Of a DNA stretch of 64,000 bases, positions 3,628-62,844 are shown in pieces. The first letter of the stretch is position 1; every line of letters starts with the position of its first letter. The position numbers and the translations under genes were made by a program. The DNA lies in the NCBI RefSeq assembly GCF_017348835.2, contig NZ_CP071375.1; one strand, given 5' to 3'. This DNA is from Escherichia coli (GTDB taxonomy: Bacteria; Pseudomonadota; Gammaproteobacteria; Enterobacterales; Enterobacteriaceae). The notes under the pieces are model-generated. The model searched no databases and was not told the DNA's origin. It saw only the letters and a list, made by a program, of their open reading frames with translations.

Positions 3628-3629
3628 CA

Positions 3630-3651
3630 AAACCCACCTTAAGGTGGGTTT
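3630..3651 (+). terminator. Hairpin downstream of yjaZ, possible terminator
   Basis: aaacccacc-ttaa-ggtgggttt inverted repeat; the T-run is short. Confidence 0.45.
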
Positions 3652-4036
3652 CGCCAGAGATAATTCTCTGGTATTCAGAACGCCATTACCGGACTTTGCC
3701 TTGACCTTGCGAGAATCGCAGGTTGCGGGATGTCTGAATTTCTTCAGTCTGCTGCATCCTGGAAGATGAGAACATGTGTTCTTATTTTCGTCTCTATCAT
3801 AGTTGAGTATTTACTCTCTTACAATCAGATCTCTTTCATTGCTCAACAGGCGATGGCTTCAGACTTTGCATTACGGAATTTTTAAGAAAGGCAGGGCGAA
3901 ACGAGGAAGAAGCTTTTCGCCCTGGACAACATTCCTGCTGACGGCACTACCATAAAAAAACACAACGCTTTCAACAACCTTGCGTTTTTCATCTTCCGTA
4001 GCGGCTCGGAATAAATTTACGTTCTTACATTCCGTC

Positions 4037-9444: not shown

Positions 9445-9580
9445 ATGAAGCAAGAGACGATCGCCGCAAAGGCGATGCGATAGCAGATTAACTCTTGTTC
9501 CCTTCGCAGGTATTAGCCTGATCAGGTTCCGCGGATCCCGAATAAACGGTCTCAGCCAGTTAAGGCACTCCGACAAGAAA
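9445..9580 (-). promoter_or_regulatory. TPP riboswitch (THI element) in the thiC leader
   Basis: Minus-strand leader contains CTGAGA followed by AACCTGATCAGGCTAATACCTGCGAAGGGAA, the conserved THI-box core; boundaries approximate. Confidence 0.7.
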
Positions 9581-9633
9581 TTAGCCCCACAAACGGGGCG
9601 TTGAATGTAAATTACGCGTTAACAGCGCAGAAC

Positions 9634-13861: not shown

Positions 13862-14563
13862 GTGGCAGTGAACAGTTTTAACGAAGGGGTGGTTTCACCC
13901 CTTTTGTCTTTCTGGCGTCGATCATTGATGCTGGCCGGCGCTCTGTTTCTCACTGCCTGTAGTCACAACTCTTCACTTCCTCCCTTTACCGCCAGTGGAT
14001 TTGCTGAAGACCAGGGCGCAGTACGTATCTGGCGAAAAGACAGCGGCGATAATGTGCATCTGCTTGCCGTGTTTAGCCCGTGGCGCAGTGGCGATACCAC
14101 GACGCGAGAGTATCGCTGGCAGGGCGATAACCTCACGCTCATCAATATCAATGTTTACAGCAAACCGCCGGTGAACATTCGCGCGCGTTTTGACGATCGC
14201 GGCGATCTGAGCTTTATGCAACGTGAATCCGATGGGGAAAAGCAGCAGCTTTCTAACGATCAAATCGATTTATACCGTTATCGTGCTGATCAGATCCGCC
14301 AGATTAGCGATGCCTTACGTCAGGGGAGAGTCGTGCTGCGCCAGGGGCGCTGGCATGCGATGGAACAGACCGTGACCACCTGCGAAGGGCAAACCATTAA
14401 ACCTGATTTAGATTCGCAGGCGATAGCGCATATCGAGCGCCGCCAGAGCCGCTCTTCTGTTGATGTCAGCGTGGCATGGCTGGAAGCGCCCGAAGGTTCG
14501 CAATTACTGTTGGTGGCAAACTCTGATTTCTGTCGCTGGCAACCCAACGAGAAAACGTTCTGA
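13862..14563 (+). CDS. yjaH: Putative lipoprotein (DUF1481-type); start codon uncertain
   Basis: ORF open from 13862, but the hupA terminator lies inside it. The internal ATG at 13928 precedes a lipobox-like LMLAGALFLTAC, so the real start may be 13928. Confidence 0.8.
   Translation: MAVNSFNEGVVSPLLSFWRRSLMLAGALFLTACSHNSSLPPFTASGFAEDQGAVRIWRKDSGDNVHLLAVFSPWRSGDTTTREYRWQGDNLTLININVYSKPPVNIRARFDDRGDLSFMQRESDGEKQQLSNDQIDLYRYRADQIRQISDALRQGRVVLRQGRWHAMEQTVTTCEGQTIKPDLDSQAIAHIERRQSRSSVDVSVAWLEAPEGSQLLLVANSDFCRWQPNEKTF
13885..13906 (+). terminator. Rho-independent terminator after hupA
   Basis: aggggtg-gtttc-cacccct hairpin followed by TTTT. Confidence 0.8.
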
Positions 14564-14564
14564 T

Positions 14565-14984
14565 TTACCAGTGGCCCATACCCATATGACCGCCACCACC
14601 GCAGCCGCCGTAACCCATTCCGGTACCGCGCGGAATACCCGCTTCAGCCATCGCAATATCTCGTTTCACCCGTAACTCATCTAACGACTGACGCAAATTC
14701 TCCATCTCTTTGGCGACCGCGTTAATTTTGCTGCTATCCGGTGGGTTCGCGGCTAACAGGGCATTGTATTCATAACGCTTCGTCACCAGTTGCTGTTGCA
14801 GTGCGCTGCTTTGAGCGTAAAAGTCATTATGGATTTTCTGCCACGCTGTCTGTTGTTCGCTGGTCAAAGGCGCGGCATTTTGCTGCCACATACCGTGTCC
14901 GCCGTGAGCAAATGCAGATGTCGATCCCATCGCCATTGCTGAAAGCGCCATCATTACCAGGGCAATTTTCGTGTTCCGTTTCAT
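14565..14984 (-). CDS. zraP: Periplasmic zinc-resistance-associated chaperone
   Basis: Start taken at MKRNTKIALVMMALSAMA (signal peptide); Gly/His-rich C-terminus GGCGGGGHMGMGHW. Confidence 0.9.
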   Translation of the reverse strand: MKRNTKIALVMMALSAMAMGSTSAFAHGGHGMWQQNAAPLTSEQQTAWQKIHNDFYAQSSALQQQLVTKRYEYNALLAANPPDSSKINAVAKEMENLRQSLDELRVKRDIAMAEAGIPRGTGMGYGGCGGGGHMGMGHW

Positions 14985-15019
14985 GGTTAATCCTCCAGTG
15001 GTTGTCTTACTTCGGGTAT

Positions 15020-15190
15020 TGCATTTTCCGTGCCAACGGTGAAACGCTGATATGACGGGCAATCTGGCGTGATAGGCGAGTAAAAATGACTCGCCTGCTG
15101 CGGGTGGCGAGTCATTTTTACTCATTGAAACTTAAGTCTTTGTGTTACAGCGCAGGGTAAGCGCTGATAAAAGATGGCATGATTTCTGCT
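15020..15190. promoter_or_regulatory. Divergent sigma-54-type promoters for zraP and zraSR
   Basis: Minus strand TGGCACGGAAAATGCA at 15020-15035; plus strand TGGCATGATTTCTGCT at 15175-15190. Both show GG-N10-GC spacing. Confidence 0.55.
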
Positions 15191-15221
15191 GTCAGAAAGG
15201 GATGAGCAGGCAAAGAAGAAG

Positions 15222-16598
15222 ATGCGTTTTATGCAATGTTCTAAAGACTCCTTCGCTAAATGGTTAAGCGCGATCCTCCCCGTAGTCATTGTTGGGCTGG
15301 TGGGGTTGTTTGCGGTAACGGTGATTCGCGATTATGGGCGCGAGACTGCCGCCGCCAGACAAACGCTGCTGGAAAAAGGCAGTGTACTTATTCGCGCTCT
15401 TGAATCCGGCTCGCGCGTCGGCATGGGGATGCGCATGCATCATGCGCAGCAGCAGGCCTTACTGGAAGAAATGGCCGGGCAGCCTGGAGTACGTTGGTTT
15501 GCGGTCACGGATGAACAAGGAACAATCGTGATGCATAGCAACTCCGGCATGGTGGGAAAACAGCTTTATTCCCCGCAGGAAATGCAGCAGTTACATCCGG
15601 GAGATGAAGAAGTGTGGCGGCGGATCGATAGCGCAGACGGCGAGCCTGTTCTGGAAATTTATCGCCAGTTTCAACCGATGTTTGCTGCTGGAATGCACCG
15701 GATGCGCCATATGCAGCAGTATGCCGCGACACCACAAGCAATTTTCATCGCTTTCGACGCCAGTAATATTGTGAGTGCCGAAGATCGTGAGCAGAGAAAC
15801 ACCCTGATTATCCTCTTCGCCCTGGCGACGGTCTTGCTGGCAAGCGTATTGTCATTCTTCTGGTATCGCCGTTATCTGCGCTCGCGCCAGCTTCTACAAG
15901 ATGAAATGAAGCGCAAAGAGAAGCTGGTGGCGCTGGGGCATCTTGCGGCAGGCGTTGCCCACGAAATCCGTAACCCACTTTCCTCGATTAAAGGACTGGC
16001 GAAATACTTTGCCGAGCGCGCGCCTGCAGGGGGAGAAGCGCATCAACTGGCGCAGGTGATGGCGAAAGAGGCCGACCGTTTAAACCGCGTGGTAAGCGAG
16101 TTGCTGGAACTGGTTAAGCCAACGCATCTGGCATTGCAGGCGGTGGATCTCAACACGCTGATTAACCACTCATTACAGCTGGTAAGCCAGGATGCAAACA
16201 GCCGGGAGATCCAGTTACGCTTTACCGCCAACGACACATTACCGGAAATTCAGGCCGATCCGGACAGGCTGACTCAGGTCCTGTTGAATCTCTATCTCAA
16301 TGCTATTCAGGCGATTGGTCAGCATGGCGTGATTAGCGTGACGGCCTGCGAAAGCGGCGCGGGCGTGAAAATCAGCGTTACCGACAGCGGTAAGGGAATT
16401 GCGGCAGATCAGCTTGAAGCCATCTTCACTCCGTACTTCACCACCAAAGCCGAAGGCACCGGATTGGGGCTGGCGGTCGTGCATAATATTGTTGAACAAC
16501 ACGGTGGTACAATTCAGGTCGCAAGCCAGAAGGGAAAAGGCTCAACGTTCACCCTCTGGCTTCCGGTCAATATTACGCGTAAGGACCCACAAGGATGA
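15222..16598 (+). CDS. zraS: Two-component sensor histidine kinase
   Basis: 458-aa ORF with H-box (AAGVAHEIRNPLSSIKG) and ATPase G-boxes; overlaps zraR by 4 nt. Confidence 0.93.
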   Translation: MRFMQCSKDSFAKWLSAILPVVIVGLVGLFAVTVIRDYGRETAAARQTLLEKGSVLIRALESGSRVGMGMRMHHAQQQALLEEMAGQPGVRWFAVTDEQGTIVMHSNSGMVGKQLYSPQEMQQLHPGDEEVWRRIDSADGEPVLEIYRQFQPMFAAGMHRMRHMQQYAATPQAIFIAFDASNIVSAEDREQRNTLIILFALATVLLASVLSFFWYRRYLRSRQLLQDEMKRKEKLVALGHLAAGVAHEIRNPLSSIKGLAKYFAERAPAGGEAHQLAQVMAKEADRLNRVVSELLELVKPTHLALQAVDLNTLINHSLQLVSQDANSREIQLRFTANDTLPEIQADPDRLTQVLLNLYLNAIQAIGQHGVISVTACESGAGVKISVTDSGKGIAADQLEAIFTPYFTTKAEGTGLGLAVVHNIVEQHGGTIQVASQKGKGSTFTLWLPVNITRKDPQG

Positions 16599-17920
16599 CG
16601 CACGATAATATCGATATTCTGGTGGTGGATGATGACATTAGCCACTGCACTATTTTGCAGGCTTTACTGCGCGGCTGGGGCTATAACGTCGCGCTGGCGA
16701 ACAGCGGGCGACAGGCGCTGGAGCAGGTGCGGGAACAGGTTTTTGATCTTGTGCTTTGCGATGTGCGAATGGCGGAGATGGACGGCATCGCCACGCTGAA
16801 AGAGATCAAAGCGTTAAACCCGGCGATTCCGGTACTGATTATGACCGCGTACTCCAGCGTCGAGACGGCGGTAGAAGCGTTGAAAACCGGGGCGCTGGAT
16901 TATCTCATCAAGCCGCTGGATTTCGATAACCTACAGGCGACGCTGGAAAAGGCGCTCGCGCATACGCACAGTATTGATGCTGAAACACCTGCGGTGACTG
17001 CCAGCCAGTTCGGTATGGTCGGTAAAAGCCCGGCGATGCAACACCTGCTCAGTGAAATCGCCCTCGTCGCGCCATCGGAAGCCACGGTGCTGATCCACGG
17101 CGATTCCGGCACCGGTAAAGAGCTGGTCGCCAGGGCGATTCACGCCAGTAGCGCACGTAGCGAAAAACCGCTGGTAACGCTCAACTGTGCGGCACTCAAC
17201 GAATCCTTGCTGGAATCTGAATTGTTCGGTCACGAAAAAGGGGCGTTTACCGGAGCCGATAAACGCCGGGAAGGGCGCTTTGTTGAGGCGGACGGCGGCA
17301 CGCTGTTTCTCGATGAAATTGGCGATATCTCGCCGATGATGCAGGTGCGTCTGCTGCGTGCGATTCAGGAGCGCGAAGTTCAGCGTGTCGGTAGCAACCA
17401 GACTATCTCGGTTGATGTCCGGCTGATTGCGGCGACCCATCGCGATCTTGCCGCAGAGGTGAATGCCGGGCGTTTTCGCCAGGATCTCTACTATCGCCTG
17501 AATGTGGTGGCGATTGAAGTACCATCGCTGCGGCAACGGCGGGAAGATATCCCTCTGCTGGCTGGCCATTTTCTGCAGCGCTTTGCCGAGCGTAATCGCA
17601 AGGCGGTAAAAGGCTTTACGCCACAGGCGATGGATTTGCTGATCCACTACGACTGGCCGGGAAATATTCGTGAACTGGAAAATGCGGTGGAACGGGCGGT
17701 GGTGCTGCTGACCGGGGAATATATTTCCGAACGCGAGCTGCCGCTGGCGATTGCCGGTACGCCGATCCCGCTGGGGCAAAGTCAGGATATTCAGCCGCTG
17801 GTGGAAGTCGAAAAAGAAGTGATTCTGGCGGCACTGGAGAAAACGGGCGGCAACAAAACCGAAGCCGCCCGTCAGTTAGGGATCACGCGCAAAACGCTAT
17901 TGGCAAAACTGTCGCGTTAG
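16595..17920 (+). CDS. zraR: Sigma-54-dependent response regulator
   Basis: 441-aa ORF with receiver domain, AAA+ sigma-54 interaction domain (GESGTGKE-like [14 protein letters not shown]) and C-terminal HTH. Confidence 0.93.
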
Positions 17921-21421: not shown

Positions 21422-22963
<1,542 letters not shown>

Positions 22964-23048
22964 CCTTAAAGAAGCGTTCTTTGTAGTGCTCACACAGATT
23001 GTCTGATAGAAAGTGAAAAGCAAGGCGTCTTGCGAAGCAGACTGATAC

Positions 23049-23124
23049 GTCCCCTTCGTCTAGAGGCCCAGGACACCGCCCTTTCACGGCGGTAACAGGG
23101 GTTCGAATCCCCTAGGGGACGCCA
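23049..23124 (+). tRNA. gltV: tRNA-Glu (anticodon UUC) in the 16S-23S spacer
   Basis: GTCCCCTTCGTCTAGAGGCCCAGGACACCGCCCTTTCACGGCGGTAACAGGGGTTCGAATCCCCTAGGGGACGCCA, 76 nt with encoded CCA. Confidence 0.95.
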
Positions 23125-23308
23125 CTTGCTGGTTTGTGAGTGAAAGTCACCTGCCTTGATATCTCAAAACTCATCTTCGGGTGATGTTTGAGATATTTGC
23201 TCTTTAAAAATCTGGATCAAGCTGAAAATTGAAACACTGAACAATGAAAGTTGTTCGTGAGTCTCTCAAATTTTCGCAACTCTGAAGTGAAACATCTTCG
23301 GGTTGTGA

Positions 23309-26212
<2,904 letters not shown>

Positions 26213-26305
26213 CAACGCCGAAGGTGTTTTGGCGGATTGAGAGAAGATTTTCAGCCTGATACAGATTAGATTAACCGGCGGTAAGCGGGTTAATACGACA
26301 GAATT

Positions 26306-26425
26306 TGCCTGGCGGCAGTAGCGCGGTGGTCCCACCTGACCCCATGCCGAACTCAGAAGTGAAACGCCGTAGCGCCGATGGTAGTGTGGGGTCTCCCCAT
26401 GCGAGAGTAGGGAACTGCCAGGCAT
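26306..26425 (+). rRNA. rrfE: 5S ribosomal RNA
   Basis: TGCCTGGCGGCAGTAGCGCGGTGGTCCCACCTGACCCC...GGGAACTGCCAGGCAT, 120 nt. Confidence 0.97.
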
Positions 26426-28516: not shown

Positions 28517-29704
28517 TCAGGCCATCCGACAAGCTACTGGTGAATAATCGAAGGCTTTATAGGTCAGAACAAACTCTTTATGCCCCAGCCGCTCTGCGCT
28601 ACAAAGTTTACCGCTGCTGACTTCCTCAATGCAGTGCAACATATCGCTTGCGACATCATCAAGCGATGCACCTTCACTGATAATCCTGCCAGCATTAATA
28701 TCCATATCATCCGCCATATTGGCCCAGGTTTGTGGGTTGTTACAGACTTTAATCACTGGCGCAATTACGGAGCCGATCACTGAACCTCGTCCGGTGGTAA
28801 ACAAAATCATATGACATCCGGTAGCGATAAGTTCCATCGCTTCTGATGAGTCATTGATGTTGGGATAGCCGAAACGCGCTTCGCCGTCGGGAACCACATC
28901 CATCAGATACAGACCAGGGTAAGGGGCATGTTCTGTCGGGAGTAAAACGCCCTGAATAGGGCTATCGCCTGACTTTGTATAGGCACCCAGCGATTTTTCT
29001 TCTTGCGTGGTTAACCCGCCGACGGCGTTACCGTTAGAAAAACTGCCTAAACCCATTGTCGCGTAATAGCGTTTAGCTTTATCCATTGCTGCATCAATCG
29101 CCTCTCTGGCCGCAGGTGTCGCCGCTCGCGCCATCATGTGGCCTTCACAACCAATCAACTCGCCGCTCTCTTCAAAAATGCAGGTCGCGCCTTGTGCGAG
29201 GAGTCGATCAAACGCGCGACCTACGGCAGGATTGCCCGTAATGCCGCTGGTGCCGTCGGAACCGCCGCAAATCGTACCAATAACTAAATCACTGAACGCA
29301 ATCGGGCGAACCGCCACCTGCTTAATTTGCGCCAGCATCTCTGTGACACAAACTTTGCCCCGTTTGATGGTTTCTGTAGTTCCCTTATTTTCCTGGATAA
29401 CCAGCTTATGGCATGGGCGACCACTGGCGATGACATCTTCATAAAGTTTATCGCGATCAAAGTTTTCGCAGCCGAGGGCGATAATCAACACCGCACCAAC
29501 ATTGGGATGGGTCGCCAGTCCTTTTACCAGTCGGTAGCCGTAGTCCGTGGGGTAACAGCCGGAAAAACCAAAATACTGCACGTCTTCATTTGTGAAAGAC
29601 TCAGCGATCGCTTTGGCAACGTGGCTGGCGCATTCCACCATAAAGATGACTTGTACGCTGTTACGTATACCGACTCTGCCATCTTGTCTCATGTAACCCT
29701 GCAT
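28517..29704 (-). CDS. UxaA-family (altronate/galactarate-type) sugar-acid dehydratase, catalytic large subunit
   Basis: 395-aa ORF resembling the C-terminal catalytic part of altronate dehydratase; start ATG overlaps the upstream stop by 1 nt. Confidence 0.7.
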   Translation of the reverse strand: MQGYMRQDGRVGIRNSVQVIFMVECASHVAKAIAESFTNEDVQYFGFSGCYPTDYGYRLVKGLATHPNVGAVLIIALGCENFDRDKLYEDVIASGRPCHKLVIQENKGTTETIKRGKVCVTEMLAQIKQVAVRPIAFSDLVIGTICGGSDGTSGITGNPAVGRAFDRLLAQGATCIFEESGELIGCEGHMMARAATPAAREAIDAAMDKAKRYYATMGLGSFSNGNAVGGLTTQEEKSLGAYTKSGDSPIQGVLLPTEHAPYPGLYLMDVVPDGEARFGYPNINDSSEAMELIATGCHMILFTTGRGSVIGSVIAPVIKVCNNPQTWANMADDMDINAGRIISEGASLDDVASDMLHCIEEVSSGKLCSAERLGHKEFVLTYKAFDYSPVACRMA

Positions 29705-30024
29705 CAGGCCTCTCCTGCTGGCTCATAGCCCGCATTATCATGGTGGAATACGGCGATATAATCGCTGTTCAGGTTATGGGAATGGATATGCTCGCCAATA
29801 GGGATAGCCTGACTGGCAGAGCCAATGCCTGCGCCATATTTACGAACTTTATCGCCCTGACATAACGTTTCGATTGCCAGCTTATGCCCAAGAGCAACGT
29901 AGCTTTGTGCCACAAATTCACCACCGTCATAGTGGACGCGATCGCCTTGCTGAATATCTTCCAGGGCGACAACGCAGTTATCGAGTTTGTGTAATAGCAG
30001 AGCGCGTTTATTCATGTTCACCAA
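29704..30024 (-). CDS. SAF-domain small subunit of a UxaA-family dehydratase
   Basis: 106-aa ORF resembling the N-terminal SAF domain of UxaA-type dehydratases; TGATG overlap with the large subunit. Confidence 0.65.
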   Translation of the reverse strand: MVNMNKRALLLHKLDNCVVALEDIQQGDRVHYDGGEFVAQSYVALGHKLAIETLCQGDKVRKYGAGIGSASQAIPIGEHIHSHNLNSDYIAVFHHDNAGYEPAGEA

Positions 30025-30071
30025 CTCTCCTGGTTGTGGGGATACAGGCGACCCACAGGCCGCCCGACTGT

Positions 30072-30836
30072 TTAGAAACCGATCAGCGCGCCGCCATCGA
30101 CAATCAGAACCTGACCGCTAACGAAACCGGCAGCATCAGAAGCCAGATAGGTTGCAGCCCAGCCGATATCTTCTGGTTTGCCGAATTTTTTCATCGGTGT
30201 ACGACCAAGAATTTTATTTTTACGCTCATCGTCACCCTCAATGGCTTTGCGCAGCATTGGCGTATCAATCCAGCCCGGAGCGACGCCGTTAACGCGGATC
30301 CCTGCGCCAGAAAGTTCGGTTGCCATGCCATGAATCAGCCCGAGGTAGGCAGACTTCGCGGCAGCATAGCCGGTGACATAAGGTTGACCGAGGAACGATG
30401 TCATTGAGGCGGTAAAAAGCACACAGGCATTGCCATGCTGTTTCATATGAGGGACCAGCGAGCGAGTCAGAGCGAACGCGCCAACGACATGGACATCAAG
30501 AACCGATTCAAAATCAGCGACGCTCATCTCTTCGATCGGTTTTTTACAGTGATTTCCGGCGTTATTGACCAGAATATCGATCTGATTATGCTGGCTCAGA
30601 AGGCCGTCTACCCAACTTTCCGTCTCGTCAGTGTGGGCCACATTGAACTGGCTCCAGGATGCATTTGGCCCCAGCGACTCGGCAGCGTTTTTGGCAGCTT
30701 CGCCATTGAGATCGGCAATGATGACTTTTGCGCCACAGGCGATCATGCATTTAGCCATTGCATAGCCCAGGCCACTGGCGGAACCGGTGATCAGGGCAGT
30801 TTTATTTTCCAGTGAAAAGGGGTTATTCATCGTCAT
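30072..30836 (-). CDS. Short-chain dehydrogenase/reductase (SDR) oxidoreductase
   Basis: 254-aa ORF with TGSASGLG cofactor motif and YAAAK catalytic pair. Confidence 0.8.
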   Translation of the reverse strand: MTMNNPFSLENKTALITGSASGLGYAMAKCMIACGAKVIIADLNGEAAKNAAESLGPNASWSQFNVAHTDETESWVDGLLSQHNQIDILVNNAGNHCKKPIEEMSVADFESVLDVHVVGAFALTRSLVPHMKQHGNACVLFTASMTSFLGQPYVTGYAAAKSAYLGLIHGMATELSGAGIRVNGVAPGWIDTPMLRKAIEGDDERKNKILGRTPMKKFGKPEDIGWAATYLASDAAGFVSGQVLIVDGGALIGF

Positions 30837-30861
30837 GATTTTTTTCTCGTCAGATAAAGGG

Positions 30862-31875
30862 TTAGAGGTCGATTAAAATTTTGGTGAATGCGCCGGGATC
30901 GGCGGCCCAGTCGCTGAACGCCCGATCGGCAGTATCAATCGGGTAGTGCGCGGAAATAATTAGCTCAATGGGGTAGCACTGCTTTTCCATTAAAGAGAGA
31001 ACTGCTCTGAAATCGGCAACGGTGGCGTTGCGGGAACCACGGATATCCAGCTCTTTCATGAGGAAGCGCGCGCTCTCATAATTCACCGGTTTTTTCGCAT
31101 AGCCGACGTACACCACGCGCCCGCAGAAGGCAGCCAGCTCGACTGCCTGCTCGATGGTTTTATCCAGGCCAATGGCTTCAATCACCACCGCAGGACCGCG
31201 GTCTTCGTTCAGTTTCGCCAGGATCTCAGCAACATTTTCGCGTGCGCTGTTGATATACCTTTCGGCACCACATGCCTTCGCTACCGCCTGCTTACGATCG
31301 TCGATATCAATGGCTACCACGCGACCGCCCATCGCGTTAGCTGCTGCAATAGCGCCAAGACCAATCACGCCGCAGCCCATAACGACGACCCATTCGCCAA
31401 CATTGATTTGCGCCCGGCGCGCAGCGTGAAGACCAACGGCTAATGGTTCGACTAACGCCAGTTCGTCACTGGAAAGGGAATTACAGACAATGACTTTATT
31501 GGCCGGAATAGACAGCAGCGGCACCATACCGCCCTGGCGCTGAACGCCAAGAGTCTGGTTGTTTTTACAGGCATTCGGGCGACCGCTCAGACAGGAACTG
31601 CAATGACCGCATTCGGTACAGGGCAGAACAACAACACGATCGCCTTCCAGAATATGTTTAACCTGGCTGCCTGTTTGCAGGATCTTGCCGCCGATTTCAT
31701 GACCGGGAATGCAAGGATACTGCGTGAGGGGATTTAGCCCGCGCCAGGTATTTAAATCTGAACCGCATAAACCAACTCGTTCAACACGAATTAATACATG
31801 GTCGGCTGGGCAATCAGGTTCGGCGATATCAATAAATCGCGTTACGGAACCTTTATCAATGGCTAACGCTTTCAT
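30862..31875 (-). CDS. Zinc-dependent medium-chain alcohol/polyol dehydrogenase
   Basis: Start taken at MKALAIDKG (337 aa); GHEIGG zinc motif, structural-zinc Cys cluster CTECGHCSSC, GCGVIG Rossmann motif. Confidence 0.8.
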   Translation of the reverse strand: MKALAIDKGSVTRFIDIAEPDCPADHVLIRVERVGLCGSDLNTWRGLNPLTQYPCIPGHEIGGKILQTGSQVKHILEGDRVVVLPCTECGHCSSCLSGRPNACKNNQTLGVQRQGGMVPLLSIPANKVIVCNSLSSDELALVEPLAVGLHAARRAQINVGEWVVVMGCGVIGLGAIAAANAMGGRVVAIDIDDRKQAVAKACGAERYINSARENVAEILAKLNEDRGPAVVIEAIGLDKTIEQAVELAAFCGRVVYVGYAKKPVNYESARFLMKELDIRGSRNATVADFRAVLSLMEKQCYPIELIISAHYPIDTADRAFSDWAADPGAFTKILIDL

Positions 31876-31888
31876 ATAAAAACCTTTT

Positions 31889-33187
31889 TTAAAGTGAATC
31901 GGATGAAATAACAGAATCGGTATTTTTAATATTTCTCTTAATAGGTTTAACGCCAAAGGCTACCCCAAGAGCGCCGATTACCCCAATGGCACCCGCAAGA
32001 ATAAATGCAGCAATAAAACTATTGGTATATTGGACAATGAAGCCAGTTAAAATAGGGGCGATAATTCCCGAGGTGTTTGCCAGTAAATGTACAAAACCAC
32101 CAACGCCACCGACTTTATCAGGGGAAATATTATCGGAGACAATTGCCCACGGCGCGGCAGCGGCGAGATACATAAAGAAGATACCCATTGCCATTAACAT
32201 CACTGCATTTGTTACGGAGGCAACCTGACCCGCAAAACTGATACAAATAGCCGAGAGAATTAACCCTCCAACGATAATTAACTTTCTGGCCAGCAGCAGA
32301 TTTTTGGTTTTGCGATATAACCAGTCTGAAAACATACCGCCAATAGCAATACCAACGCTACCAATAATCCACGGAATGGCCGAGGCAATACTCATCTCCT
32401 GAATATTTAGTCCCTTTTCCATTGAGAGATAACTTGGAAACCAGGTTAAAAAGAAATACAGAATATAGTTAATAGAGAAGAATGCCAGGCCAGTGAACAG
32501 AACTATAGGCTGGGTCAGGTAGAAGATAAAAGGCACTTTGGCTGAGTCAGTGCCGTAGCCTGGCGCGCCTTTTTGCGCCTCATCATACTCGGCAATTTCT
32601 TCTTTCGATGTATGAGGGTTATTATGTGGACGATCGGTAAATGCTTTAATCCAGAAAAATGTCCAGATAAAACCCAGAGACATTAAAATGATAAAAGCGA
32701 TGCGCCAGTTCCACATCACCACGATTGCGCCAACAATCGGACCCGCAATCGCACCACCCAAAGGGTTGCCCGCGTTTGCGATGCCCACAGCTCTGGCGCG
32801 CTGATCAAGCGGAACCCAGTTACTAATGCATTTGTTGATCGTCGTACTAATCGGGCCTTCGCTCATCCCGAATAATACGCGCACGATAAACAAAGATATA
32901 TAACCGAAAGCGAGGCCAGTCAGCCCACAGAACAATGACCAGGAAAGCATTGCAATGGCAAAAACTTTGCGGGGACCATAGAGATCGGATAAATAGCCAC
33001 CAACAAAGTTAAATAATGCATAACCAAAGAAAAAACTACTCAGCATAATCCCAACTTCGGCTGGGTTTAGGCCAAAATGATCTTTGATATAGGGCATTGC
33101 CACAGAAAATGCCGCACGATCGAGATAATTAATTATTCCAGCGATAAACAGCAGGAATAATATTTTGGAATGCTGTCGTTTGAACAT
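31889..33187 (-). CDS. MFS transporter, anion:cation symporter type (hexuronate/aldonate-like)
   Basis: 432-aa ORF with many hydrophobic segments and NYLDRAAFSVAMP motif near the N-terminus; AT-rich coding sequence. Confidence 0.75.
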   Translation of the reverse strand: MFKRQHSKILFLLFIAGIINYLDRAAFSVAMPYIKDHFGLNPAEVGIMLSSFFFGYALFNFVGGYLSDLYGPRKVFAIAMLSWSLFCGLTGLAFGYISLFIVRVLFGMSEGPISTTINKCISNWVPLDQRARAVGIANAGNPLGGAIAGPIVGAIVVMWNWRIAFIILMSLGFIWTFFWIKAFTDRPHNNPHTSKEEIAEYDEAQKGAPGYGTDSAKVPFIFYLTQPIVLFTGLAFFSINYILYFFLTWFPSYLSMEKGLNIQEMSIASAIPWIIGSVGIAIGGMFSDWLYRKTKNLLLARKLIIVGGLILSAICISFAGQVASVTNAVMLMAMGIFFMYLAAAAPWAIVSDNISPDKVGGVGGFVHLLANTSGIIAPILTGFIVQYTNSFIAAFILAGAIGVIGALGVAFGVKPIKRNIKNTDSVISSDSL

Positions 33188-33254
33188 AGCAAGTCCTGCA
33201 TAAATAATTTATGTGAATAGTGGTAGGGTAGAATTAATAATTTAAATATATGAT

Positions 33255-33941
33255 CTACATCACACCGAACTTTTCAAATACTTCCACGGTGCTCATGCCA
33301 TTTTTTATCGCCAGACGAACATCACTTTCGGTTGCGACTTTATTCAGTGCTTCAGCTATTACCTCCTTTTCAACTTCTTTTGGAATAACTAAAAGACCAT
33401 CGCAGTCGCCATAAATAATATCGCCGGGATTTATCACCACACCGCAAACTTCAACCGGGACGTTATAATCAATGACTTTTCCTCGCGGCCCCTGATCCTG
33501 AGCATAAGTACCATAACTAAATGTGGGGAAATTAATATCAAGAATTTCTTTAGAGTCCCGGACATAACCATCAAGAACAGCACCGGCGGCCTTAAGATGC
33601 ATAGCGCGAGTGGACATTAAACCGCCCCATAATGCGTAACGTAGCGAACTTCCTGTCGCAATATAAACATCGTTTTCTTTCAGCGAATCCAGCGCCTCAA
33701 ACATAATACCGAACGGTTTTTTACCAATTGCTGTATTCCCCGACGATGAGTGCAACTCATAAACATCGGCTTCAAGAACAGGCATAGCCCGCCCTGCGAG
33801 AACCATACTGGAGTGTAAAGGTTTCATTGAAGGAGAAACAAACTGATGCAAATATCCTTTGGTATCAAGAATATCGCCAACAACGGCAGTAAATAACTGC
33901 GTACGCATCAACTGAAAAAGTTCCTTGTCATTGTTCCACAT
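33255..33941 (-). CDS. RraA-like / class II aldolase-decarboxylase family protein
   Basis: 228-aa ORF; length and sequence resemble the RraA/HMG-CHA aldolase fold rather than 161-aa RraA itself. Confidence 0.6.
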   Translation of the reverse strand: MWNNDKELFQLMRTQLFTAVVGDILDTKGYLHQFVSPSMKPLHSSMVLAGRAMPVLEADVYELHSSSGNTAIGKKPFGIMFEALDSLKENDVYIATGSSLRYALWGGLMSTRAMHLKAAGAVLDGYVRDSKEILDINFPTFSYGTYAQDQGPRGKVIDYNVPVEVCGVVINPGDIIYGDCDGLLVIPKEVEKEVIAEALNKVATESDVRLAIKNGMSTVEVFEKFGVM

Positions 33942-33992
33942 AATTAACGATCCTGAATTGTAGTGAGGAGGTGTGAACAGAGACTAGAGTAG

Positions 33993-34025
33993 AACCTATA
34001 AACCTGTCAAACAGGTTTATAGGTT
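33993..34025. promoter_or_regulatory. Perfect 15-bp inverted repeat, candidate operator in the divergent promoter region
   Basis: AACCTATAAACCTGT-caa-ACAGGTTTATAGGTT, 52 bp upstream of the RraA-like gene start and ~210 bp upstream of the GntR-type regulator gene. Confidence 0.55.
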
Positions 34026-34236
34026 GAAGAGTGTAAACGATCGCACTCTGCGAGCCTCTTCACAATTTCAGCTATGGTTTACTGCGATCGCTTTTCAACC
34101 GGATGCGTCCTATCGCTGCTACGCCTTTTTCGGTAACATACGAACCAAAGGTAGGAGGGATTATCTGTAACGCTATGATTTTTAAGTTTTAGATAAGATA
34201 TGTTGCGGCTGAAACAGGTAATATCTGCTCGGTAAA

Positions 34237-34965
34237 TTGATGGCAAGAATGATGACAACGAAAATTCAGCTAGAAAGTAACACGCTCTCAGCCCAGGTAC
34301 GAGACTACATACTGTCGTTAATTGCGCGGCAAAAGTTAACCGTCGGGATGCCGGTGCCCAGTGAAATGCAACTTACCCAGGAACTTGGCGTCAGTAAGGG
34401 CGTTGTCCGTGAGGCCTATCGTTCACTTGCCGCCCTTGGAATACTCGAAACCAAAAGTGGTAAAGTGCCACGCATTAAAGCCTTTGATTCTAGCGTGTTG
34501 CAGGTCATTTTTTCCTTTGCGACGCTGACCGAGCAGGTCAGTTCTTCACAGATACTTGCCGCCAGACGTTGGCTGGAAGCCGGATGCGTACAAATGGCGG
34601 CGCTCAATGGAGATGAAGAGGATTTTGCTGCGCTGAAGCAAGAAATGTCGTTGATACGCGAAGAGTTTTCTGACACCGAGCGTTTCCTGGAACATGATTT
34701 AAATTTCCATTTGCTGTTATCGCAGGCATCTAAAAATCCTTTATTCAGCATTCTGTTGCAGGCTTTACACACCCAGTTAACCCACTCAATGCGAGCGGGT
34801 CTGGAAGCACAACGCAATAATCATGAATATGAGCGTGGGATAATTGCATTGCACCAACGTGTTTGTGACTGTGTTTGTAATCGCGATGCTGAAGGTGCGA
34901 TGAAAGCCATGGATGAGCATTTCAACCTCTCTTCTGATGCTTTAAACAATCAGTCTCCTCTTTAA
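34237..34965 (+). CDS. GntR/FadR-family transcriptional regulator
   Basis: 242-aa ORF with N-terminal winged-HTH (QLTQELGVSKGVVREAYRSLAALGILE) and a C-terminal helical ligand domain; divergent from the catabolic genes. Confidence 0.8.
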   Translation: MMARMMTTKIQLESNTLSAQVRDYILSLIARQKLTVGMPVPSEMQLTQELGVSKGVVREAYRSLAALGILETKSGKVPRIKAFDSSVLQVIFSFATLTEQVSSSQILAARRWLEAGCVQMAALNGDEEDFAALKQEMSLIREEFSDTERFLEHDLNFHLLLSQASKNPLFSILLQALHTQLTHSMRAGLEAQRNNHEYERGIIALHQRVCDCVCNRDAEGAMKAMDEHFNLSSDALNNQSPL

Positions 34966-34989
34966 TTAAGCGATTCAGCACCTTATCTC

Positions 34990-38159: not shown

Positions 38160-38320
38160 AACGTTGCTGACTGTAGGCCGGATAAGGCATTTACGCCGCA
38201 TCCGGCAATCAGTGCACGATGCCTGATGCGACGCTTGCGCGTCTTATCATGCCTACAACCGTTGCCGAACGTAGGCTGGATAAGGCGTTTACGCCGCATC
38301 CGGCAATTCTCTGCTCCTGA
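38160..38320. repeat. REP (repetitive extragenic palindromic) elements between aceA and aceK
   Basis: Repeated GCCGGATAAGGCATTTACGCCGCATCCGGCA / GCCTGATGCGACGCTTGCGCGTCTTATCA units in alternating orientation. Confidence 0.8.
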
Positions 38321-57678: not shown

Positions 57679-57694
57679 TGGCACGCTTCTCGCA
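57679..57694 (+). promoter_or_regulatory. Candidate sigma-54-type promoter ~300 nt upstream of the SPFH gene
   Basis: TGGCACGCTTCTCGCA with GG-N10-GC spacing; motif match only. Confidence 0.3.
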
Positions 57695-62399: not shown

Positions 62400-62640
62400 T
62401 TTCAGCCTTGGCACAAGGGAAGAGCGGAAGACGGGTGGGCGCAGAGCGATACTTCGCTACTATTTTCACCCAGAAGTGCTCCACCACTTGCGAAACGCCC
62501 GACTGCGAACGCTTCTGGTGACAACCCAGGGGATTCAGCCCCTGTAGCCGATGATGAACGTGGCCAGCCGTTCAATCACCTCGGCGATGCACCCCCTCAG
62601 GTGTTATCACAGGACTGGCTCCTCCAACACCGTTACTTGG
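62400..62640 (-). promoter_or_regulatory. Lysine riboswitch (LYS element) in the lysC leader
   Basis: Long structured leader within the ~525-bp divergent lysC-pgi region; assigned from the known lysC leader, boundaries approximate. Confidence 0.5.
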
Positions 62641-62844
62641 GCAACGCGCCTCTTCTGGCCTGCGCTAGCGCAGGTAGTACATTTATAAATAAAGGGTGAG
62701 CGGGGCGGTTGTCAACGACGGGGTCATGCGGATTTTTCATCCACTCCTGGCGGTCAGTAGTTCAGCTAATAAATGCTTCACTGCGCTAAGGGTTTACACT
62801 CAACATTACGCTAACGGCACTAAAACCATCACATTTTTCTGTGA

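What the first reader, a model, noticed from the sequence alone, without database searches (positions are those of the whole stretch)
15020..15190. Back-to-back sigma-54-type promoters for zraP and zraSR
Two -24/-12-type motifs face opposite directions within ~170 bp. This fits known control of zraP and zraSR by the sigma-54 activator ZraR, so it confirms annotation rather than being novel.
Basis: partly seen in the sequence, partly recalled or inferred. Interest (0 to 1): 0.15.

Follow-up and report, generated by a model that had tools for sequence, protein, structure and literature searches.

The report
Known divergent zraP/zraSR sigma-54 promoters
This is the well-documented control region between the E. 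coli genes zraP and zraSR: two sigma-54 promoters pointing away from each other with a shared ZraR binding site between them, so the finding is correct but ordinary.

Summary
Both the observation and the interpretation hold. The window is E. coli chromosome: hupA-yjaH-zraP(-)/zraS-zraR(+)-purD. The pattern TGGCAY-N6-TGCW occurs exactly twice in the 64 kb. Both copies lie in the 237-bp zraP-zraS spacer, at 15020-15035 (-) and 15175-15190 (+), and each faces its own gene. Between them is a perfect 18-nt inverted repeat (15078-15123), which I read as the ZraR enhancer. The spacer is about 98% identical to K-12. In K-12 these same motifs are sigma-54 ChIP-seq peaks OS38 and OS39 (PMC4591121) and are tabulated as known sigma-54 promoters at -51/-34 and -47/-30 from the start codons (PMC2831329). 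The window has those same offsets. ZraR binds this spacer in gSELEX and ChIP-exo experiments. In 21 loci from Escherichia, Citrobacter and Salmonella, both motifs and both enhancer halves are conserved islands in an otherwise variable spacer. The enhancer spacing is fixed at 31 bp in 19 of the 20 loci measured. One caveat: I could not read a paper with experimentally mapped start sites, and EcoCyc listed both promoters as "predicted" in 2015. The finding is already known and of low interest. Seen in passing: a sharply bounded, deeply diverged allele of the ZraS periplasmic sensor domain, and an unexplained conserved block upstream of the zraS promoter.

The parts
14565..14984 (-). zraP coding sequence (139 aa plus stop). 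It encodes a periplasmic protein of the Metal_resist/CpxP family and is the target gene of the left-hand promoter.
   Evidence: ORF and translation. Pfam PF13801, E=1e-23. Annotated as zraP in K-12 and in strain PE164.
14991..14996 (-). zraP Shine-Dalgarno sequence GGAGGA, 6 nt upstream of the ATG.
   Evidence: Read directly from the sequence. Largely conserved in alignment A2.
15020..15036 (-). zraP sigma-54 promoter, TTGGCACGGAAAATGCA. The -24 GG is at 15034-15033 and the -12 GC at 15022-15021. The predicted start is about 15009, giving a 25-nt leader.
   Evidence: The K-12 counterpart TTGGCACGGAAGATGCA is sigma-54 ChIP-seq peak OS38, 25 nt from the gene (PMC4591121). It sits at -51/-34 from the ATG, as in PMC2831329. 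13 of 17 columns are invariant across 12 taxa.
15078..15092 (.). Left half of the ZraR enhancer (UAS), GAGTAAAAATGACTC, a GAGT-N7-ACTC palindrome. Its centre is about -76 from the predicted zraP start and -116 from the predicted zraS start.
   Evidence: Inverted repeats I1 and I2. The core GTAAAAATGAC is invariant in all 21 loci. ZraR binding to this spacer is shown by gSELEX and ChIP-exo. The assignment to these exact bases is an inference.
15109..15123 (.). Right half of the ZraR enhancer, GAGTCATTTTTACTC, the exact reverse complement of the left half. Its centre is about -85 from the predicted zraS start and -107 from the predicted zraP start.
   Evidence: these are the only two copies in the window with up to 3 mismatches. 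Centre-to-centre spacing is 31 bp in 19 of 20 loci measured.
15138..15158 (+). Conserved block of unknown role. The 80% consensus is GTTTGTGT-N7-CAGGGT, in fixed ungapped register with the zraS -24 element, at about -63 to -43.
   Evidence: There is no IHF consensus with up to 1 mismatch in the spacer and no sigma-70-like promoter.
15174..15190 (+). zraSR sigma-54 promoter, ATGGCATGATTTCTGCT. The -24 GG is at 15176-15177 and the -12 GC at 15188-15189. The predicted start is about 15201, giving a 21-nt leader.
   Evidence: It is identical to K-12 sigma-54 ChIP-seq peak OS39, 21 nt from the gene (PMC4591121). It sits at -47/-30 from the ATG, as in PMC2831329. 14 of 18 columns are invariant.
15222..16598 (+). 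zraS, the sensor histidine kinase (458 aa).
   Evidence: Pfam HisKA and HATPase_c. Annotation.
16595..17920 (+). zraR, the sigma-54-dependent response regulator (441 aa) with REC, AAA+ (GAFTGA) and HTH_8 domains.
   Evidence: Pfam PF00158 E=8e-74, PF00072, PF02954. GAFTGA is visible in the translation.

Best explanation
The 237-bp spacer between zraP and zraSR is a compact bidirectional sigma-54 control region. RNA polymerase carrying sigma-54 sits in closed complexes on two back-to-back -24/-12 promoters whose predicted starts are about 192 bp apart (about 15009 minus, about 15201 plus). Midway between them lie two 15-bp palindromes, GAGT-N7-ACTC, 31 bp (three helical turns) apart. I read these as the binding sites for dimers of phosphorylated ZraR. 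When ZraS senses zinc, lead or envelope stress, it phosphorylates ZraR. ZraR then assembles into an AAA+ ring on this enhancer, contacts either polymerase by DNA looping and uses ATP to open the promoter. One arm makes the periplasmic protein ZraP. The other makes more ZraS and ZraR, which is positive autoregulation.

Shown in the literature for the near-identical K-12 sequence: sigma-54 occupancy of both motifs, ZraR occupancy of the spacer, and dependence of zraP and zraS expression on rpoN and zraR.

Inferred here: the exact start sites, the assignment of the palindromes as the ZraR sites, and looping from one shared enhancer to both promoters.
For: Sequence and statistics:
- The motifs are unique in the window and correctly oriented. 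A chance pair is rare: 3 of 1500 simulations.
- The enhancer is a perfect 18-nt inverted repeat, and its 15-mer occurs nowhere else in the window.
- The spacer is about 98% identical to K-12, with both motifs and both palindromes intact.
- No sigma-70-like promoter or terminator-like site was found in 14400-15400.
- ZraR has the Sigma54_activat domain and GAFTGA.

Literature:
- Sigma-54 ChIP-seq peaks OS38 and OS39 carry these motifs, with predicted leaders of 25 and 21 nt (PMC4591121). The window gives the same values.
- PMC2831329 lists both among known sigma-54 promoters at identical offsets.
- RpoN holoenzyme gSELEX gives a peak in the zraP/zraS spacer (PMC8743547).
- The Salmonella sites TGGCACGGAAGATGCAAG and TGGCATGATCTCTGCTTA are bound by sigma-54 holoenzyme, and a promiscuous activator induces zraP 16-fold and hydHG 3.7-fold (PMC3844500).
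- In gSELEX, ZraR binds essentially only this spacer: 81 of 86 clones (PMC8249747).
- ChIP-exo peaks lie upstream of zraP and zraSR, and zraS falls by log2 3.18 in a zraR knockout under zinc (PMC7657598).

Conservation:
- In 12 taxa the four elements have a mean majority fraction of 0.92-0.99, against 0.58-0.65 for the DNA between them.
- The distance from the zraP promoter to the enhancer differs between Escherichia and most Citrobacter/Salmonella loci by 11 bp, about one helical turn (10 bp in C. sedlakii). The enhancer spacing and the zraS-side distance stay nearly constant.
Against: No experimentally mapped 5' ends could be read here. Leonhartsberger et al. 2001 is not held, and Bonocora's Table 1 marks both promoters 'P' (predicted in EcoCyc). 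In unstimulated cells, zraS mRNA is unchanged in a zraR knockout (log2 -0.02), so some basal, ZraR-independent transcription of zraSR must exist, and its promoter was not found. The zraS site gives weaker signals than the zraP site (ChIP FAT 9 against 39; 3.7-fold against 16-fold induction). The window strain itself has not been tested, and rpoN lies outside the window.
Confidence: 0.95

Rival explanations
1. Only the zraP motif is a working promoter. The zraS motif binds sigma-54 but contributes little, and zraSR is mainly transcribed from an unrecognised constitutive promoter.
For: Signals at zraS are weaker: ChIP FAT 9 against 39, and 3.7-fold against 16-fold induction in Salmonella. Basal zraS mRNA is independent of ZraR (log2 -0.02 unstimulated). 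The iModulon analysis did not capture zraS.
Against: zraS drops by log2 3.18 in a zraR knockout under zinc. The zraS motif is the most conserved stretch of the spacer, with 14 of 18 columns invariant over three genera. No sigma-70-like promoter was found. Reviews state that both promoters are ZraR-controlled (PMC4987338).
Confidence: 0.04
2. The motifs are chance matches to a short degenerate consensus and have no function in this strain.
For: A looser consensus with 2 mismatches is no more frequent in the window than chance: 13 found against 14 expected. A count of two strict matches in 64 kb is not in itself significant: 21 of 100 shuffles had at least 2.
Against: Both strict matches lie in one 237-bp spacer, are divergent, and sit 34-51 and 30-47 nt from the start codons of a sigma-54 activator operon and its target gene. 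They are conserved in all 21 loci, and the near-identical K-12 sequence is bound by sigma-54 in vivo.
Confidence: 0.005
3. The promoters are also, or instead, driven by another enhancer-binding protein such as NtrC, by cross-activation from solution.
For: zraP expression rose under nitrogen limitation (PMC4591121). The ZraR iModulon is active in phosphate-depleted medium and in ethanol.
Against: [quoted passage not shown] ZraR gSELEX is highly specific for this spacer.
Confidence: 0.05

Closest known systems
E. coli K-12 zraP and zraSR (hydHG) sigma-54 promoters with the ZraR enhancer (Leonhartsberger et al. 2001; sigma-54 ChIP-seq peaks OS38/OS39 of Bonocora et al. 2015)
   Same: It is the same locus. 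The spacer is about 98% identical. The zraS motif is identical, the zraP motif differs at one spacer base (A for G), and both palindromes are identical. The offsets from the start codons are the same.
   Different: There are a few point differences in non-motif spacer DNA. The adjacent ZraS periplasmic domain is a different allele from K-12.
Salmonella Typhimurium zraP / hydHG sigma-54 promoters (Samuels et al. 2013)
   Same: The arrangement is the same divergent pair, with near-identical -24/-12 sequences. The S. arizonae locus L021 has both motifs and both enhancer cores.
   Different: The distance from the zraP promoter to the enhancer is 11 bp longer in the Salmonella locus and in most Citrobacter loci (10 bp in C. 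sedlakii). The intervening spacer DNA is unrelated.
Other divergent sigma-54 promoter pairs sharing one activator, for example hycA/hypA with FhlA, and the NtrC enhancer at glnAp2
   Same: The logic is the same: an enhancer-binding protein bound about 80-120 bp upstream activates sigma-54 closed complexes. hycA and hypA are likewise divergent sigma-54 promoters listed in the same tables.
   Different: The activator, signal and enhancer sequence all differ. This comparison rests on general knowledge of those systems and was not tested here.

Membership tests
Sigma-54 (-24/-12) promoter class | GG and GC dinucleotides exactly ten positions apart within a TGGCAC-N5-TTGCW-like sequence | tested here: met
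   TGGCACGGAAAATGCA and TGGCATGATTTCTGCT. Each departs from the full consensus at 1-2 positions.
Sigma-54 (-24/-12) promoter class | Correct orientation and a short distance to a downstream gene start | tested here: met
   Predicted leaders are 25 nt (zraP) and 21 nt (zraS), the same as the published K-12 values.
Sigma-54 (-24/-12) promoter class | Occupancy by sigma-54 holoenzyme | not testable with these tools
   Shown for the near-identical K-12 sequence by ChIP-seq and gSELEX, and for Salmonella by ChIP-chip. Not measured in this strain.
Sigma-54 (-24/-12) promoter class | A transcription start about 12 nt downstream of the GC, mapped experimentally | not testable with these tools
   No mapped 5' end could be read. 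The primary paper is not held. EcoCyc status was 'predicted' according to PMC4591121 Table 1.
Sigma-54 (-24/-12) promoter class | An upstream enhancer for an AAA+ activator, and no -35/-10 promoter | tested here: met
   The palindrome pair lies at -76 to -116. There are no sigma-70-like sites in 14400-15400.
ZraPSR envelope-stress / zinc-responsive system | Gene set and order: zraP divergent from zraS-zraR | tested here: met
   ORFs, Pfam domains, and RefSeq annotation of matching genomes.
ZraPSR envelope-stress / zinc-responsive system | ZraR is a sigma-54 activator with REC, AAA+ (GAFTGA) and Fis-type HTH domains | tested here: met
   PF00072, PF00158 (E=8e-74), PF25601 and PF02954. GAFTGA is present in the translation.
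ZraPSR envelope-stress / zinc-responsive system | ZraR binds the zraP-zraS spacer | not testable with these tools
   Published gSELEX and ChIP-exo data for K-12. The palindromes are identical in the window. My recollection that the 2001 paper describes two inverted repeats separated by a 14-bp spacer fits CGAGTAAAAATGACTCG-N14-CGAGTCATTTTTACTC, but I could not check it.
ZraPSR envelope-stress / zinc-responsive system | Induction by zinc or lead through ZraS | not testable with these tools
   Literature only. The window's ZraS sensor domain is a different allele from the K-12 protein that was studied.

The most novel reading that the evidence does not exclude
The spacer may hold one more functional element than the textbook picture of two promoters plus two ZraR palindromes. 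The block GTTTGTGT-N7-CAGGGT (15138-15158) keeps an ungapped, fixed register with the zraS -24 element in most of 22 sequences from three genera. It lies on the zraS side only. It could be a third, weak ZraR site or a site for an architectural or other regulatory protein that sets how the shared enhancer is divided between the two promoters, or that provides the ZraR-independent basal zraSR expression. The indel of about one helical turn on the zraP side suggests that helical phasing to the enhancer is under selection.
Probability: 0.3. Interest if true: 0.3.

Novelty: already known. Interest (0 to 1): 0.08.

Why it matters
For annotation, it confirms that this strain keeps the complete, intact ZraPSR control region: both sigma-54 promoters and the enhancer. 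It adds little new biology. The modest additions are cross-genus footprinting that pins the functional bases, the phasing-preserving indel, and the reminder that the start sites appear to rest on prediction plus ChIP data, not on mapped 5' ends in the sources I could read.

Tried and rejected
- My first motif search used the wrong spacer length (N7) and missed both sites. N6 is correct.
- A loose consensus with 2 mismatches is uninformative: 13 found against 14 expected.
- I looked for an IHF site between the enhancer and the promoters. There is none with up to 1 mismatch in the spacer. The best candidate, read by eye, is TAAGTCTTTGTGT with 2 mismatches, and it is not conserved in Citrobacter. 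No paper links IHF to this spacer.
- I looked for a sigma-70 promoter that could explain basal zraSR expression and for terminators at the convergent gene ends. None was found by the consensus scan.
- I considered the inverted repeat as a terminator or an RNA hairpin. I rejected this because it lies upstream of both predicted starts, has no terminator signature, and its conservation is of sequence (an invariant 11-nt core), not only of pairing.
- I considered a third ZraR site centred 31 bp right of the enhancer. The sequence there is only weakly similar by eye, so this is not supported.
- I tried to obtain mapped start sites. Leonhartsberger 2001 is not held. Full-text searches returned no paper giving zraP or zraS 5' ends. 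One search was too permissive and was wasted.
- A search for prior description of the ZraS sensor-domain dimorphism found nothing relevant in the papers listed.

Full report
**What is in the sequence.** The region reads as yjaH(+), zraP(-), a 237-bp spacer, zraS(+), zraR(+) and purD(-). zraP is 14565-14984 on the minus strand, zraS is 15222-16598 and zraR is 16595-17920. A 401-bp probe across the spacer matches 5420 of 5426 complete E. coli genomes, always under features annotated zraP and zraS. K-12 MG1655 and strain PE164 show the same gene order. Pfam supports the three products:
- ZraP matches Metal_resist.
- ZraS matches HisKA and HATPase_c.
- ZraR matches Response_reg, Sigma54_activat (E=8e-74), an AAA lid and HTH_8. 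The GAFTGA signature is visible in the ZraR translation.

**Checking the observation.** The pattern TGGCAY-N6-TGCW has exactly two matches in the 64-kb window on both strands:
- 15020-15035 on the minus strand, TGGCACGGAAAATGCA.
- 15175-15190 on the plus strand, TGGCATGATTTCTGCT.

Two matches in 64 kb is not remarkable on its own: 0.83 are expected, and 21 of 100 shuffles had at least two. Their placement is what matters. Both lie in one spacer, they are divergent, and each faces a gene start 30-51 nt away. In 1500 Markov simulations only 3 contained a divergent pair 50-400 bp apart anywhere in the window. A looser consensus with two mismatches carries no information.

**What lies between the motifs.** A perfect 18-nt inverted repeat, GAGTAAAAATGACTCGCC / GGCGAGTCATTTTTACTC, occupies 15078-15095 and 15106-15123. 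Each arm contains a GAGT-N7-ACTC palindrome. This 15-mer occurs nowhere else in the window, even with three mismatches allowed. I applied the convention of Bonocora et al., which places the start 19 nt downstream of the centre of the 17-nt motif. That gives:
- predicted starts at 15009 (minus) and 15201 (plus), 192 bp apart;
- leaders of 25 and 21 nt;
- palindrome centres at -76 and -107 from the zraP start, and at -85 and -116 from the zraS start;
- palindrome centres 31 bp apart, about three helical turns.

No sigma-70-like promoter or terminator-like site is found between 14400 and 15400. No IHF consensus with up to one mismatch falls in the spacer.

**Comparison with published data.** The spacer is about 98% identical to K-12. 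The only difference inside a motif is one spacer base of the zraP element (A for G). The published evidence for K-12 and Salmonella is as follows.
- Bonocora et al. 2015 (PMC4591121) report sigma-54 ChIP-seq peaks OS38 (zraP, TTGGCACGGAAGATGCA, 25 nt from the gene) and OS39 (zraS, ATGGCATGATTTCTGCT, 21 nt from the gene). These distances equal those in the window.
- Zhao et al. 2010 (PMC2831329) list both among known sigma-54-dependent promoters, at -51/-34 and -47/-30 from the start codons. These offsets are also identical in the window.
- RpoN holoenzyme gSELEX gives a peak in the zraP/zraS spacer (PMC8743547).
- In Salmonella LT2, the corresponding sites are bound by sigma-54 holoenzyme, and a promiscuous activator induces zraP 16-fold and hydHG 3.7-fold (PMC3844500).
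- ZraR gSELEX recovers essentially only this spacer: 81 of 86 clones (PMC8249747).
- ZraR ChIP-exo peaks lie upstream of zraP and zraSR, and zraS mRNA falls by log2 3.18 in a zraR knockout under zinc (PMC7657598).
- A review states directly that ZraR controls divergent sigma-54 promoters for zraSR and zraP (PMC4987338).

**Independent test by conservation.** A scan of one genome per species with the ZraP protein returned 21 loci from Escherichia (including E. albertii and E. whittamii), many Citrobacter species and S. enterica subsp. arizonae. Every locus has both motifs in the same orientation and near the same position. In a 12-taxon alignment the spacer is otherwise poorly conserved, but four islands stand out:

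| Element | Mean majority fraction | Invariant columns |
|---|---|---|
| zraP motif | 0.94 | 13 of 17 |
| Left palindrome | 0.99 | 14 of 17 |
| Right palindrome | 0.92 | 11 of 16 |
| zraS motif | 0.96 | 14 of 18 |
| DNA between the elements | 0.58-0.65 | few |

The geometry is conserved too:
- The palindrome centres are 31 bp apart in 19 of the 20 loci measured.
- The right palindrome is 58.5-60.5 bp from the zraS GG.
- The distance from the zraP GG to the left palindrome is 51.5 bp in Escherichia. It is 62.5 bp in the Salmonella locus and most Citrobacter loci, and 61.5 bp in C. sedlakii. The difference of 10-11 bp is about one helical turn. This is what one expects if the enhancer must stay on the same face of the helix as the promoter.

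**Mechanism.** The best-supported reading is the established one. Sigma-54 holoenzyme waits in closed complexes at both promoters. Phosphorylated ZraR assembles on the two central palindromes and, by looping and ATP hydrolysis, opens either promoter. This produces ZraP and, through autoregulation, more ZraS and ZraR.
- Shown, for the K-12 or Salmonella sequence: occupancy by sigma-54 and ZraR, and the dependence of expression on them.
- Inferred: the exact start sites, the assignment of the palindromes as the ZraR contacts, and the sharing of one enhancer by both promoters. For the palindromes, my memory of Leonhartsberger et al. 2001, "two inverted repeats separated by a 14 bp spacer", fits CGAGTAAAAATGACTCG-N14-CGAGTCATTTTTACTC, but I could not check it.

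**Caveats.**
The 2001 primary paper is not held. No held paper that I found gives 5' ends. Bonocora's table marks both promoters as only "predicted" in EcoCyc.
- Basal zraS expression does not depend on ZraR (log2 -0.02 unstimulated), so a basal promoter exists that I did not locate.

**Verdict.** This is an already known regulatory region, intact in this strain, and of low interest.

**Seen along the way.**
- The ZraS periplasmic sensor domain (about 15300-15812) is only 43-82% identical to K-12 at the DNA level in 60-nt bins, while the DNA on both sides is mostly 98-100% identical. At the protein level the two alleles are 61% identical, about as far apart as either is from Citrobacter or Salmonella.
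- About 77% of complete E. coli genomes carry the window's allele, and K-12 carries the minority one. The K-12 type is shared with E. whittamii and E. albertii. The window type is shared with Escherichia sp. MOD1-EC7003.
- A conserved block, GTTTGTGT-N7-CAGGGT, sits in fixed register upstream of the zraS -24 element and is unexplained.

Noticed in passing
window 15300-15812 (zraS codons ~27-197): The ZraS periplasmic sensor domain is a sharply bounded divergent allele. It is 43-82% identical to K-12 DNA in 60-nt bins, while the DNA on both sides is mostly 98-100% identical. The protein segment is 61% identical to K-12, about as far as either allele is from Citrobacter or Salmonella. 4183 of 5419 complete E. 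coli genomes carry the window type, and 1236, including K-12, carry the other. The K-12 type is shared with E. whittamii and E. albertii, and the window type with Escherichia sp. MOD1-EC7003. This looks like an old polymorphism, or recombination, confined to the signal-sensing domain. The allele studied in K-12 is the minority one. None of the papers listed by my search described it.
   Followed up: partly
window 15138-15158: A conserved block, GTTTGTGT-N7-CAGGGT (80% consensus), sits in ungapped fixed register with the zraS -24 element, at about -63 to -43, across 22 sequences of three genera. It is weaker in S. arizonae and C. sedlakii. It is not an IHF consensus and not a sigma-70 promoter. 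Its role is unknown.
   Followed up: partly
window 15037-15076; loci L007-L022: The spacer between the zraP promoter and the left ZraR palindrome is 11 bp longer in the Salmonella locus and most Citrobacter loci than in Escherichia, and 10 bp longer in C. sedlakii (62.5 or 61.5 bp against 51.5 bp from the GG to the palindrome centre). The other distances are nearly constant. That is about one helical turn, consistent with a face-of-helix constraint.
   Followed up: yes
window 14580-14633: The 3' end of zraP, which encodes the Gly/His-rich C-terminal tail, carries a 6-nt indel relative to K-12, giving 139 aa against 141 aa.
   Followed up: no
window 14563-14565 and 17917-17920: The convergent gene pairs end almost on top of each other. 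The yjaH stop and the zraP stop are 1 nt apart, and zraR and purD overlap by 4 nt. No terminator-like hairpin was found near the yjaH/zraP junction. ExcludonFinder lists yjaH-zraP and zraR-purD as convergent overlapping transcription units in E. coli (PMC12288877).
   Followed up: partly
window ~28530-34980: A six-gene block lies between metA and aceB in the matching strain PE164: two UxaA-family hydrolase ORFs, an SDR oxidoreductase, a zinc-type alcohol dehydrogenase, an MFS transporter, an RraA-family protein and a GntR-type regulator (locus L023, offset 5101). From memory, K-12 has no such block here. I did not check this.
   Followed up: no
window 57679-57694 (+): TGGCACGCTTCTCGCA is a one-mismatch match to the full sigma-54 consensus TGGCACG-N4-TTGCW. 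Its context and function were not examined.
   Followed up: no
window 3629-3789 (-), 9482-9582 (-), 21422-26423 (+), 38176-38253 (+), 62466-62662 (-): The Rfam gathering-threshold hits are sroH sRNA, the TPP riboswitch upstream of thiC, a complete rrn operon with tRNA-Glu and the StyR-44 spacer element, naRNA4 and a lysine riboswitch. All are ordinary for this part of the E. coli chromosome.
   Followed up: no
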